From the human T2T-CHM13v2.0 reference genome, Homo sapiens: DNA of 64,000 nucleotides. The stretch is taken from the NCBI RefSeq assembly GCF_009914755.1, contig NC_060940.1; one strand, given 5' to 3'. A program made the translations under genes and the position numbers. A model generated the notes under the pieces. The model was not told the origin of the DNA. It searched no databases and was given only the letters and a program-made list of their open reading frames with translations. Every line of letters starts with the position of its first letter. Within the stretch, counting starts at the first letter, position 1. Below, one piece after another: positions 27,487 through 64,000 of this stretch.

Positions 27487-49595
<22,109 letters not shown>

Positions 49596-50513
49596 TTGCA
49601 GAATGAGAACAGGGGCTCATGATGAGTGCCAACCTATTAGATAATTTAAAAAAAAAGTGTTGAATGAGTGGAAAAACAAGGTGATGTTTGAGTCTATAGT
49701 GGTCAAGGGCTTCAGAAAAGGACAGAACCAAGTTCAAATTCCTGTACTTTGAATTTCTACTTCATGCCATGCAAAATTACTTTACCCCTTTTAACCTCAG
49801 TTTTCTTCTGTGTGAAACAGGAACAATAGTTTCATTCGTCATTCAGTTTCTCTCAAGGTTTCACGAGATCATACCTATAAAACATCCAAGTCATTTAAAT
49901 GTATCATCATTTCTGTCATAATTAGTGGGATCCATTTCACTATTATTGGATATACAGTTCTGTGCCTGAAACCTACAAAAAAAGAAAATGTTAAGTCTAA
50001 AAAGCATTAGTGATTTCTCATTTTTATATTACTAATTATAACCCTATTTAATCACACAAGGCCTTGTCCGTGGCAGGTGCTCAATAAACACTTGTCGAAT
50101 CAATGCATGTGGGCTCCGGAGCCACACTGTTTAGATTCTATTCTGCCTCCACCACTTATCAGCTGTGTGATCTGGGTAAGATAATTCACCTCTTTATGTC
50201 TGCACTTCCCTCTCCATAAACTATATATAATGAGAATCCTTAGCTCATTCGGTTGTGGTGAGGGGTGAATGATTTGGCACACAGGAGGGGCTTGTTAAAC
50301 ATTAGCTGTGATGATCTCCTTCCAAATCTTCATTTTCAGAGCCACAGATGAGGCCACAGTGCAACCAGGTGACCTTAGAGTGTAAGTACACATGATCGCC
50401 AGCTATGCTCTGTCTCCACCATAGGTCCAAGACTGGGTAGTTCCGGCCTGGAGGTTTCTGCTGCATCTGCCTTCTCAGTGCTCACCTAAGGGCTTTTGTA
50501 TTTTCCTCCTCGC

Positions 50514-50596
50514 ATCCCCACAGATGGGGTTCAGGCTGCCGGACACAGCTGGGTGATGCCAGGGCAGTGGTCACCTGTGCCAGCCCTGTGAGGTAG
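50514..50596 (-). pseudogene. Degraded ACSM-like antepenultimate exon
   Basis: ccag|C TAC CTC ACA GGG ... gives YLTGLAQVTTALA / HPAV / SGSLNPICGD, against ACSM YRIGPAEVESALVEHPAV...VGSPDPIRGE; frameshifted, internally deleted, donor gcgagg. Confidence 0.7.
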
Positions 50597-50830
50597 CTGG
50601 AGGATCATTGTTCCTTCCTTCTCGGGCTCTGGGCAGATGCCAGGGCTGGGGTGACCCATGCCCTCAAGTTTCTTGCTTTGGTGGGCCACATTTTCCCTTG
50701 GCAAAGAGGGTAAAGGTCACAGGATGCCAGAGAGCTGTGACTTCTCTGTGCCCTGGGCCCAAACTATGAAGACCTGACACACTATGCTAAAAGTCCAAGG
50801 CTGGGTGCTCCCCAGAGCTTCTTGCCTCAC

Positions 50831-50935
50831 CGCTTCTGCTGAGGGAGGAATGAATACTATGTCCTCCCAGAGCTTTGGGAGCTTGTAGCAAGCAGCCTCC
50901 CCAGCACAAAATCTCTTGGAAACCTCTAACTGTGT
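50831..50935 (-). other. Candidate non-coding 5' exon of NPIPB
   Basis: tgtttcag|ACACAG ... GAAGCG|gtgagg; splice signals only. Confidence 0.3.
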
Positions 50936-51729
50936 CTGAAACATTAGTGCAAATGTTGCATCATATTTCCCATATGTCCGCATGTTTTAGGAAAAAACCC
51001 TCAATTTCCTAAATATGCAAGAAAAATCGATATTGTAGGACAATGTGACTTTTTAAAAAATGTTATTTAAAAATCTTCCCCACCTCCTTTTCTGCCCTCC
51101 AAGACTGCCAAATACTTGTTGAACAAATATTATTAAAAGCCTACTACGTGCCAGCCATGATTCATGGTCTTGGGGACACAGCAGAGAACAAACTGACAGG
51201 ATTCCTCTCTTATGCAACTCACATTCTTATACGATAATGATAAGGGTTAACATTAATTAAGCCGTCACCACGTGTTAGTCACGGTGCAGTCATTCCCACA
51301 CATTATTACACTTAAACCTGCTAGCAAGCTTGCAAGGTAGTTAGTTGTTTTTCCTTTAAAAACTGAGTCTCGGAATGATGAAGCACTCTGTCCAATGTCA
51401 CACGGCTAGTAAGTGTGGAGACCTTGCATCCAATCAATGCCCGTCTCATTCTAAAGGCCATGTTATGTGTTCTCCAGCCCATGGAGAATAATTTTAACAC
51501 AGTCAATGAAATTTCTACACAACAATGTTCTTGTTTCAAGTCCAAGAATGCCTCCTACACCTCCTATAATACTGGCTTTCTGGTGAGTAAAGATGGCATT
51601 CTCATGTGTAATCAGGTGGCAAATGGAGATATGACCAAAGTAACCATCTGCCTACACTCATAACCCTGTACACACTCTTCCTGTGTCGATTCAATTCAAG
51701 TACCCCTTTTGATCACTTAGCAAATCTGA

Positions 51730-61284: not shown

Positions 61285-61919
61285 TGCTTTAGAATCTGCC
61301 ATGAATCTGCAGCCTCTATTATATAGCTCCCTATAGACTTTGCTTCCTACCGTCTTACGTTCTGCCTTATAGGCATTTGAGTTTGCAGCCCTTGTTTTTG
61401 TTAGTATGTTATGCTGGTGACATTGACCAAATTGACCACACATTAATGATAAGCTTAGTTGGTGATGACCTCAACGGAATAACGTGACATAAGTATTGTG
61501 ACAATACTTCTTGCATGTATCTGCAGGTGGAATTGTAAACCTGGTGGTCCGAGATGGTCTAATTCCATCTTCCTATGTATCTCCTTATATTAATAGTGGT
61601 AACATTTGTGATGGTGATTCAGCATTTCAATGCCTCTTCTCATGGCAACAACAAACGTTTTCCTTCTGAATCAACATTAACCTAGATGTTACTGTGGATC
61701 AAAATTAGACTCTACATTTTCAACCACAGAAATACTGGGCAGTAAAAATTTTTCTTAATATTGATTGTCTACATAGGTTGTGTAATTAGCATGTGTTTAC
61801 AGTTCTATGATTTCTGCGTGGCTGCTACAGAGCTGGAGGGGGTAAAGCAACAGTGTTTTCTCAGTTGTGCGAGCAGCATTACATTATAATAAATAGGTAA
61901 TATTAAACTGGGCTGATGA

Positions 61920-63470
61920 GAGTTGCAAAAGACTACTTTAATGTTCATATGGAACCAAAAAAGAGCCCACATTGCCAAGACAATCCTAAGCCCAATGAAC
62001 AAAGCTGGAGGCATCATGCTACCTGACTTCAAACTATACTACAAGGCTACAGTAACCAAAACAGCCTGGTACTGCTACCGAAACAGACATATAGACCAAT
62101 GGAACAGAACAGAGCCCTCAGAAATAATACCACACATCTACAACCATCTGATCTTTGACAAACCTGACAAAAACAAGAAATGCAGAAAGGATTCCCTACT
62201 TAATAAATAGTGCTGGGAAAACTGGCTAGCCCTATGTAGAAAGCTGAAACTGGATCCCTTCCTTACACCTTATACAAAAATTAATTCAAGATGGATTAAA
62301 GACTTAAATGTTAGACCTAAAGCCGTAAAAACCCTAGAAGAAAACCTAGGCAATACTATTCAGGACATAGGGATGGGCAAGGACTTCATGTCTAAAACAC
62401 CAAAAGCAATGGCAACAGAAGCCAAAACTGACAAATGGGTTCTAATTAAACTAAAGAGCTTCTGCACAGCAAAAGAAACTAGGATCAGTGTGAACAGGCA
62501 ACCTACAGAATGGGAGAAAATTTTTGCCATCTACTTGTCTGACAAAAGGCTAATATCCAGAATCTACAAAGACCACCAACAAATTTACAAGAAAAAAAAC
62601 AAACCCCATCAAAAAGTGGGCAAAGCATATGAACAGACACTTCTCAAAAGAAGACATTTATGCAGCCAACAGACACATGAAAAAATGCTCATCATCACTG
62701 GCCATCAGAGAAATGCAAATCAAAACCACAATGAGATATCATCTCACACCAGTTAGAATGGCGATCATTAAAAAGTCAGGAAACAACAGGTGCTGGAGAG
62801 GATGTGGAGAAATAGGAACACTTTTACACGGTTGGTGGGACTGTAAACTGGTTCAACCATTGTGGAAAACAGTGTGGCGATTCCTCAGGGATCTAGAACT
62901 AGAAATACCATTTGACCCAGCCATCCCATTACTGGATACATACCCAAAGCATTATAAATCATGCTGCTATAAAGACACATGCACACATATGTTTATCGCG
63001 GCAATATTCACGATAGCGAAGACTTGGAACCAACACAAATGTCCATCAATGATAGACTGGATTAAGAAAATGTGGCACAGATACACCATGGAGTACTATG
63101 CAGCCATAAAAAAGGATGAGTTCATGTCCTTTGTAGAGACATGGATGAAGCTGGAAACGATCACTCTCAGCAAACTATCACAAGGACAAAAAACCAAACA
63201 CCGCATGTTCTCACTCACAGATGGGAACTGAACAATGAGAACACTTGGACACAGGAAGGGGAACATCACACACTGGGGCCTCTTGTGTGGTGGGGGAGGG
63301 GGAAGGGATAGCAGTAGGAGATACACCTAATGTAAATGACGAGTTAATGGGTGCAGTACACCAACATGGCACATGTATACATATGTAACAAACCTGCACA
63401 TTGTGTACATGTACCCTATAACTTAAAGTATAATTTTAAAAAATAAGTAAATAAATAAATAAAAAAAGAA
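61920..63470 (+). mobile_element. 5'-truncated primate L1PA: disrupted ORF2 C-terminus, 3' UTR and A tail
   Basis: ORFs 61923..62210, 62373..62756 and 62629..63231 are ORF2 pieces ([28 protein letters not shown]) broken by TAG at 62208 and a frameshift; G-rich UTR and A-rich tail follow. Confidence 0.97.
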
Positions 63471-64000
63471 ACAATTGCTGGCTTTGCAATTCTCTTTCCT
63501 CCAAAATCGCCAAGGCCTCAATTTACTCATTGCTGAAAAAGGACGACTCTGTATATTTTTAAATGAAGAGTGTTGTTTTTACCTAAATCACTCTGGCCTG
63601 GTATATGACAACATAAAAAAACTCAAGGATAGAGTCCAAAAACTTGCCAACCAAGCAAATAATTATGCTGAACCCCCTTGGGCACTCTCTTAATTGGATG
63701 TCCTGGGTCCTCCCAATTCTTAGTCCTTTAATACCTGTTTTTCTCCTTCTCTTATTCGGACCGTGTGTCTTCTGTTTAGTTTCTCAATTCATACAAAACC
63801 GTATCCAGGCCATCACCAATAATTCTATATGACAAATGCTCCTTCTAACAACCCCACAGTATCAGCCCTTACCCCAAAATCTTTCTTCAGTTGAATCTCT
63901 CCCACTGTAGGTTCCCAGGCCGCCCCTAATCCCGCTCGAAGCAGCCCTGAGAAACATCGCCCATTATCTCTCCACATCACCCCCAAAAATTTTCGCCACC
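63471..64000 (+). mobile_element. HERV-H internal 3' segment with defective env TM region; runs off the window
   Basis: LQNRQGLNLLIAEKGRLCIFLNEECCFYLN (ISD plus CX6CC), then NWMSWVLPILSPLIPVFLLLLFGPC after a +1 shift near 63691; TGA at 63830. Confidence 0.9.

What the first reader, a model, noticed from the sequence alone, without database searches (positions are those of the whole stretch)
49590..49640. Start codon created on a destroyed splice acceptor
Seen: the minus strand reads cccctgttctcattctgcaa-ATG GTG AAG, a pyrimidine tract ending CAA right before the ATG. Knowledge: ACSM proteins read GE-VVKAF here, implying ancestral cag|GTG GTG AAG. Inference: two adjacent G>A changes removed the acceptor and made the initiator, and a new acceptor (ttttttttaaattatctaatag|G, 49633) turned the old intron end into 5' UTR. 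A dead acceptor with a replacement upstream implies the exon is spliced from a more distant promoter.
Basis: partly seen in the sequence, partly recalled or inferred. Interest (0 to 1): 0.7.

Follow-up and report, generated by a model that had tools for sequence, protein, structure and literature searches.

The report
Splice site turned into start codon
In the human NPIPB genes two neighbouring G-to-A changes turned the splice acceptor of a copied ACSM1 exon into the annotated start codon; the exon's origin is already published, but it likely came not alone but inside an old block joining ACSM1's tail to an NPIP gene, whose decayed remains still lie beside ACSM1.

Summary
Core observation confirmed. 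All 15 of 15 NPIP-linked copies read CAA|ATG; all 8 of 8 other homologs, ACSM1 included, keep CAG|GT. Both G>A changes map to the one branch leading to NPIP.

Two corrections. The replacement AG 38 nt upstream is old (ACSM1 has it); only its T-run is new. And it is used optionally: RefSeq's donor is 162 nt away, and the top long-read NPIPB11 model runs through unspliced. Distant promoters are documented (BOLA2-SMG1P6-NPIPB11; a GC-rich exon 5 kb upstream in NPIPA2). An out-of-frame ATG at -25 overlaps the start; my search found no protein-level evidence for initiation here.

Published: the ACSM1 origin of the exon (Dishuck 2025) and the ape origin of the ATG (Bekpen 2017). Not found in print in my searches: the nucleotide-level route, and that the window carries three consecutive ACSM1 exons with their introns, while a decayed NPIP gene (73-82% identical, collinear) lies just downstream of ACSM1, with further relics on chr10, 11, 7 and X. 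The exon was likely co-duplicated with NPIP, not duplicated independently. The order of the two changes is unresolved. Modest interest.

The parts
49595..49596 (-). GG>AA dinucleotide: 49596 is the former G of the acceptor AG, 49595 the A of the new ATG
   Evidence: 15/15 NPIP copies CAA|ATG, 8/8 other homologs CAG|GT; outgroups G,G
49476..49595 (-). MVKL first coding exon of NPIPB11, a copy of ACSM1's penultimate exon, same frame and same donor
   Evidence: 103/120 nt and 31/40 aa identical to the ACSM1 exon; RefSeq; Dishuck 2025
49596..49633 (-). 38 nt of former ACSM1 intron end, now 5' UTR; keeps the old pyrimidine tract
   Evidence: cDNAs A2_2, B11_1, B6_1
49549..49620 (-). out-of-frame upstream ATG (-25, A at -3) opening a 23-codon ORF that overlaps the main ATG
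   Evidence: present in 15/15 NPIP copies and in the chr11, chr10:96 and chr22 copies
49634..49670 (-). replacement acceptor: old cryptic AG (49635-49634) plus an NPIP-specific T-run (49656-49648)
   Evidence: pyrimidine fraction 0.71-0.76 and 0 competing AGs in 6 NPIP copies, against 0.29-0.62 and 0-2 in 6 others
49634..49795 (-). 162-nt RefSeq 5' UTR intron with a weak donor (GAG|gttaaa)
   Evidence: length arithmetic fits 3 isoforms that must be spliced
49875..49972 (-). 98-nt non-coding exon made from ACSM1 intron sequence (donor TAG|gtatga; ACSM1 has TAT|gtatta); carries 6 ATGs
   Evidence: spliced to the -38 acceptor in NPIPA2 cDNA
50514..50596 (-). decayed copy of the preceding ACSM1 exon, donor GT>GC, 15-nt deletion
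   Evidence: alignment
47187..47273 (-). copy of ACSM1's last exon; acceptor, frame and stop intact, but no AATAAA/ATTAAA in the 700 nt after it
43357..43431 (-). hydrophobic first exon of the NPIP body ([11 protein letters not shown]...), whose homolog with upstream TATAAA also lies downstream of ACSM1
   Evidence: that it is the MRVR/MRLR start exon of the papers is my inference
31302..37304 (-). NPIP body segments, including exons 36038-36137, 31584-31644 and 31439-31474, collinear at 79-82% with DNA downstream of ACSM1

Best explanation
Two adjacent G>A changes on the branch leading to the NPIP copies turned the acceptor and first base of a duplicated ACSM1 exon (CAG|GTG) into CAA|ATG, the annotated NPIPB start, in a block that likely carried ACSM1's last three exons together with a neighbouring NPIP gene. 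Shown: the boundary, the polarity of both changes, the three ACSM1 exons with introns, the collinear NPIP relic behind ACSM1, and the old AG at -38 with a new T-run. Inferred steps: (1) an old genomic duplication copied the ACSM1 tail plus NPIP; (2) the preceding exon decayed and the ACSM1 poly(A) signal was likely lost, so the exon's intact donor skips the terminal-exon copy and joins NPIP exon 2, in phase 0, 9.6 kb away; (3) with the acceptor dead, transcripts either splice to the cryptic AG from donors 162 or 241 nt upstream or keep the intron, fed by borrowed promoters (BOLA2-SMG1P6 read-through for B11, published); (4) ribosomes would reach the ATG only by leaky scanning or reinitiation past an overlapping out-of-frame ATG, so output is predicted to be low.
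For: 15/15 against 8/8. The NPIP clade has 100/100 support and sits with the chr11 and chr10:96 copies, which keep CAG|GTG. Nine ordered blocks totalling 5155 nt of window sequence match the ACSM1 locus from window 31302 to 50973; these segments hit only a handful of non-NPIP loci genome-wide, so they are not common repeats. Three chr10 copies and the chr11 copy carry both the ACSM exon and NPIP-body pieces. NPIP is adjacent to an ACSM duplicate in dog and mouse lemur (Cantsilieris Fig. S15 legend). ATG absent in monkeys and lemur, present in 4 gibbon BACs (Bekpen). Spliced use of the -38 AG. BOLA2-SMG1P6-NPIPB11 transcripts. None of the isoform rows as held contains the terminal-exon peptide.
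Against: No non-human genome could be searched, so the direction of the old duplication and the order of the two changes are untested. One orangutan BAC has the UTR but no ATG. The polarity of the poly(A) difference is unresolved because that stretch aligns poorly, and weaker AGTAAA variants are present. No ribosome or peptide evidence for initiation here was found. The spliced UTR has 7 upstream ATGs and the RefSeq UTR 57. Variation among the 15 copies (6 amino-acid-changing, 3 silent) cannot be told from neutral. The short-alignment tree gave only 81/79 for the NPIP clade, and the NPIP-body tree is star-like. The relic's exon 2 lies inverted, 15 kb from the ACSM1 exon, so the relic is rearranged.
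Confidence: 0.78

Rival explanations
1. The exon came by an independent duplication of a single ACSM1 exon, placed upstream of an existing NPIP gene (the wording of Dishuck 2025).
For: Stated in the paper. 12 or so of the 27 NPIP bodies lack the exon (27 bodies, 15 exon copies). A chr22 copy carries ACSM1 sequence without detectable NPIP body.
Against: Three ACSM1 exons, their introns and the NPIP body are collinear with the ACSM1 locus. Old chr10 copies keep both parts in order. The exon is closer to the chr10/chr11 copies (K2P 0.12-0.15) than to ACSM1 (0.24).
Confidence: 0.07
2. The ATG is a by-product that is rarely used. The transcripts are read-through or intron-retaining RNAs, and NPIPB protein starts mostly at other exons, so MVKL is mainly an ORF-calling result.
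For: C at -3 for the main ATG against A at -3 for the overlapping upstream ATG; 9 to 60 ATGs in the colinear UTRs; scattered 5' ends; no sign of constraint; the NPIP version no longer scores against AMP-binding_C.
Against: G at +4; frame and donor intact in 15/15 NPIP copies while the chr11 copy is frameshifted and the chr10:96 copy has a stop; MVKL heads 12 isoform rows of Table S5.
Confidence: 0.35
3. The two changes were one tandem mutation (GG>AA; CC>TT on the other strand), so acceptor loss and start gain were simultaneous rather than stepwise.
For: No intermediate among 23 human homologs; slight excess of adjacent pairs on the stem, 9 against 5.0, P=0.052; given the ATG, an independent neighbouring G>A has a prior of about 0.06.
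Against: The stem is long (0.069 changes per site), and about 5 adjacent pairs are expected from independent hits.
Confidence: 0.4
4. NPIP arose elsewhere, one copy landed behind ACSM1, and that composite later seeded today's loci; ACSM1 is then a way-station, not the birthplace.
For: The tree of the NPIP body does not resolve a root. Published work calls 16p13.1 the ancestral locus.
Against: Dog NPIP copies lie beside an ACSM duplicate. The divergence of 0.19-0.22 is older than the monkey-ape comparisons used to define the 16p13.1 locus (calibration recalled).
Confidence: 0.2

Closest known systems
NPIPB 'MVKL' start exon co-opted from ACSM1 exon 12 (Dishuck et al. 2025, PMC12790995 / bioRxiv 10.1101/2025.02.04.636496)
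   Same: This is the same exon: 40 aa, ACSM1-derived, half of the AMP-binding C-terminal domain.
   Different: In the text I saw, the paper gives no splice-site or nucleotide account and calls it an independent duplication. Here it sits in a multi-exon block co-duplicated with NPIP.
Ape-specific NPIPB start codon (Bekpen et al. 2017, bioRxiv 10.1101/116087)
   Same: Same ATG; absent in monkeys and lemur, present in gibbon BACs.
   Different: That paper derives it from noncoding repetitive DNA. It is in fact the first base of an old coding exon.
ACSM duplicate adjacent to NPIP in dog and mouse lemur (Cantsilieris et al. 2020, PMC7419210, Fig. S15 legend, Table S4)
   Same: An ACSM-NPIP neighbourhood that is older than primates.
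   Different: There it is read as a lineage-specific flanking duplicon of ACSM2A/ACSM5. The parts I read describe no NPIP relic at human ACSM1 or on chr10, 11, 7 or X.
Promoter co-option by read-through in segmental duplications, e.g. SMG1P-NPIPB (bioRxiv 10.64898/2026.01.14.699191)
   Same: Supplies the distant promoter for this paralog (BOLA2-SMG1P6-NPIPB11).
   Different: The passages seen do not say which NPIPB11 acceptor is used.
Cryptic acceptor activation after loss of the canonical AG; start-codon gain in duplicated gene fragments (general knowledge, recalled)
   Same: Same logic: a nearby AG takes over and a point change creates an ATG.
   Different: Here both effects fall on one dinucleotide straddling the junction, and the gained UTR brings in an overlapping upstream ORF.

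Membership tests
ACSM1-derived exon | sequence and frame homology to the ACSM1 penultimate exon | tested here: met
   103/120 nt, 31/40 aa; the ACSM1 exon scores against PF13193 at E=0.001, below the curated cut-off
ACSM1-derived exon | same intron-exon boundaries as the source | tested here: met
   acceptor position and donor coincide; the previous ACSM1 exon ends GE|gt
Genomic (DNA-level) duplication | introns and neighbouring exons retained in order | tested here: met
   three exons and introns collinear
Single-exon independent duplication | homology to the source ends near the exon | tested here: not met
   homology continues through the NPIP body
De novo splice acceptor | AG absent from the ancestral sequence | tested here: not met
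   AG present in ACSM1 and in 5 of 6 non-NPIP copies compared
Cryptic acceptor activation | a pre-existing AG is used in spliced transcripts after the canonical one is lost | tested here: met
   A2_2 cDNA junction; RefSeq intron; 3 isoforms too short to be unspliced
Functional initiation codon | ribosomes initiate here in vivo | not testable with these tools
   no data found; context mixed
Tandem (single-event) mutation | no intermediate state in any lineage | tested here: inconclusive
   none in 23 human homologs; no primate genomes available
AMP-binding C-terminal domain (PF13193) | whole domain scoring above cut-off | tested here: not met
   the NPIP exon and the last-exon copy, scanned separately, gave no family at E up to 1

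The most novel reading that the evidence does not exclude
NPIP's birthplace is the slot directly behind ACSM1. The LCR16a core descends from an old 'ACSM1 tail + NPIP' block that was already duplicating across chromosomes (chr10 three times, chr11, chr7, X) near the root of primates. One GG>AA event in an ape ancestor then re-recruited the hitch-hiking ACSM1 exon as the NPIPB N-terminus, under an overlapping upstream ORF.
Probability: 0.5. Interest if true: 0.55.

Novelty: new member of a known kind. Interest (0 to 1): 0.36.

Why it matters
NPIP is among the most strongly selected human gene families, and its core drives the chromosome 16 rearrangements linked to neurodevelopmental disease. 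A base-level account of its main B-type start corrects two published descriptions (from noncoding repeats; independent exon duplication). It also makes testable predictions: weak, optional splicing, and translation damped by an overlapping upstream ORF. The relic behind ACSM1 and the old copies on other chromosomes would supply outgroups inside the human genome for dating and polarising NPIP changes, and would push the duplicon's mobility back before the known expansions. The start-codon detail alone is a neat but small addition to a known case.

Tried and rejected
Ordering the two substitutions from human paralogs failed: no intermediate in 23 homologs, and no primate genomes are held. Testing selection on the exon was uninformative (6 amino-acid-changing against 3 silent changes among 15 copies). 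A short MVKL-plus-last-exon isoform (68 aa if spliced) was looked for in Table S5: 0 hits for its peptide or exon sequence, but cells are cut at 400 characters. The GC-rich first exon of NPIPA2 is not in this window (0 matches at up to 3 mismatches), and no 1-kb bin from 44 to 64 kb has CpG observed/expected above 0.42, so a local CpG-island promoter for B11 was rejected. Retroposition was rejected because introns are retained. Common-repeat artefact for the ACSM1-NPIP collinearity was rejected because the segments hit few loci genome-wide. A direct blastn of the preceding ACSM1 exon against the window found nothing; it showed only in a targeted alignment. No homolog of the start of NPIP's last exon or of exon 2 was found in the fetched collinear part of the ACSM1 locus. 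My first coordinates for the 98-nt exon were off by one and were redone. No splice-strength model was available, so only pyrimidine content and competing AGs were compared. One search gave no usable rate for germline GG>AA doublets (listing only). Chr16:20,536,001-20,545,000, which holds the inverted exon-2 relic, was not read.

Full report
Observation. A search of the own genome with 401 nt around it gave 24 matches; 23 cover the exon and L022 was set aside as flank only. All 15 near-identical copies read CAA|ATG. All 8 others read CAG|GTG (6) or CAG|GTC (2): ACSM1 (L019), two further ACSM-type exons (L023, L024), and copies on chr11, chr22 and chr10 (three). I identify L019 as ACSM1 from its translation, its exon structure and the paper's statement. 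The names ACSM2A/2B for L023/L024 are recalled. At L019 the previous exon ends in GE|gt in phase 0 and the next exon is terminal, followed by AATAAA.

Where the changes fall. On a 1.4-kb alignment the NPIP copies form one clade (100/100, stem 0.069) beside the chr11 and chr10:96 copies (K2P 0.15-0.165), with ACSM1 and chr22 outside (5 of the 15 NPIP copies were used). Both G>A changes sit on the NPIP stem, with G in the outgroups. The stem has 76 substitutions in 1143 informative columns and 9 adjacent pairs against 5.0 expected (P=0.052); G>A hit 17 of 270 G sites. One tandem event and two successive events both remain possible. Bekpen 2017 reports no ATG in New World monkeys, macaque or mouse lemur, an ATG in four gibbon BACs, and none in one orangutan BAC. 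That places the gain in early apes, with the orangutan case unexplained.

The replacement acceptor. The AG at -38 is old: it is present in ACSM1, chr11, chr10:96, chr22 and chr10:81.1, and absent only in chr10:80.4 (5 of 6). What is NPIP-specific is the T-run, which lifts the pyrimidine fraction to 0.71-0.76 (6 copies) from 0.29-0.62 and leaves no competing AG. In Table S5 of Dishuck 2025, 12 rows begin MVKL. A2_2 shows a GC-rich first exon, a 98-nt exon (window 49972-49875) and a junction into the -38 AG; its first exon lies about 5 kb upstream at the chr16:14.74 Mb locus and is absent from this window. B11_1, the top model for this gene, runs through the site unspliced. For 9 of the 12 rows I compared lengths, using window positions as a stand-in for the paralogs. 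Three (B11_2, B345L1_1, B35L1_1) are too short to be unspliced and fit either the 162-nt or the 241-nt intron. Six fit no splicing with a 45-98-nt 3' UTR, though splicing with a longer 3' UTR is not excluded for those whose junction I could not see. Two rows start at or inside the 38-nt stretch. So the acceptor is used but optional. A distant promoter for this paralog is published: BOLA2-SMG1P6-NPIPB11 transcripts. The window has no CpG island upstream.

Translation. The shift brings an out-of-frame ATG at -25 into the UTR. It has A at -3, is present in 15 of 15 copies, and opens 23 codons that overlap the main ATG, which has C at -3 and G at +4. The spliced UTR has 7 upstream ATGs, three in that overlapping frame; the RefSeq UTR has 57. 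One literature search found no initiation or peptide evidence. Low output by leaky scanning or reinitiation is a prediction.

Beyond the finding. The exon did not travel alone. The window holds a decayed copy of the preceding ACSM1 exon (50596-50514, donor GT>GC) and an intact-looking copy of the last exon (47273-47187) with no canonical poly(A) signal in the next 700 nt. Loss of that signal would explain why the donor joins NPIP exon 2 instead; this is inferred. Nine blocks from window 31302 to 50973 (5155 nt, 67-82%) match the ACSM1 locus in order. The part downstream of ACSM1 includes homologs of NPIP's hydrophobic first exon with its TATAAA and of three internal exons; an exon-2 homolog lies inverted further on. 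Other old NPIP-body relics lie at chr10:80.4, 81.1 and 96.05, chr11:3.39, chr7:65.6 and chrX:50.4 Mb, at K2P 0.17-0.26 where measured, in a star-like tree. The chr10 copies keep ACSM exon and NPIP parts in order. Cantsilieris 2020 notes NPIP beside ACSM duplicates in dog and mouse lemur. The simplest reading is an old ACSM1-tail-plus-NPIP block. Whether ACSM1 is the birthplace needs other mammals. By recalled neutral rates, 0.15 and 0.2 correspond very roughly to 50-60 and 60-80 million years.

What is known. The ACSM1 origin (Dishuck) and the ape origin of the ATG (Bekpen) are in print. The acceptor-to-ATG route and the relic behind ACSM1 were not found in searches or in the papers as read. 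Gene catalogues may still list the relics as pseudogenes; I could not check.

What I saw of each paper. Dishuck preprint: abstract, section 7 part 1 of 2, passages. PMC12790995: passages, supplement 1 text, supplement 5 rows cut at 400 characters, supplement 6 searched, all six searched once; mmc7 unreadable. Bekpen: passages, section 5, supplementary legends; the Fig. S6 alignment, which may already show the monkey bases, was not visible. PMC7419210: passages, Discussion part 1 of 2, supplement search, file 1 part 3. Passages only: 10.64898/2026.01.14.699191 (46), PMC9132208, PMC6920530, PMC12596725. No figures were seen.

Verdict. Real, and mostly right as history; the acceptor is recruited rather than new, and the promoter inference is too strong. 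The headline is largely known. The co-duplication and the relics are the part worth following. Interest 0.36.

Noticed in passing
G000:C16:20,547,367-20,552,271 (L025) and 20,540,067-20,540,571: Decayed NPIP-like gene directly downstream of ACSM1: first exon with TATAAA but ATA in place of ATG, internal exons at about 80%, and an inverted exon-2 copy. Dog is reported to have two inverted NPIP copies beside an ACSM duplicate.
   Followed up: partly
G000:C10:80.38, 81.12 and 96.05 Mb; C11:3.39-3.43 Mb; C7:65.6 Mb; C23:50.37 Mb: Old NPIP-body relics (75-83% identity) outside chromosomes 16 and 18, not mentioned in the NPIP papers as read.
   Followed up: partly
window 47187-47273 (-): Copy of ACSM1's last exon keeps acceptor, frame and stop in 4 of 4 NPIP copies checked that have it. 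Spliced to the MVKL exon it would give a 68-aa peptide. It is deleted at the chr16:14.75 Mb copy, and an extra AG sits 4 nt upstream of the acceptor.
   Followed up: partly
L041:4400-5100; G000:C16:28,644,652 and 29,030,909; C10:96,062,351; C12:79,668,721: The GC-rich first exon used by NPIPA2 has copies near two other MVKL exons, upstream of the chr10:96 relic, and a 72% match on chr12. From recall this could be a PAWR retrocopy acting as an antisense promoter; not checked.
   Followed up: partly
L014 (chr18 copy), 38 nt upstream of the ATG: Junction reads AATAG|ATAG, giving a second AG 4 nt downstream; this copy also lacks 4 nt in the repeated donor.
   Followed up: no
G000:C22:17.71-17.72 Mb (L018, L031): At least 8 kb of ACSM1 upstream introns and exons at 82-88% identity, with the donor of the homologous exon changed to ct and no NPIP body found.
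   Followed up: partly
window 43357-43431 and 44213 (-): Two alternative NPIP first coding exons lie inside NPIPB11's first coding intron: a hydrophobic MRGRW... exon and the MFCC exon.
   Followed up: no
window 61919-63474: 1.5-kb element 88-92% similar to insertions at three chr10 loci, most likely a LINE-1 fragment; one such insertion splits the chr10:96 copy just upstream of the -38 AG.
   Followed up: no
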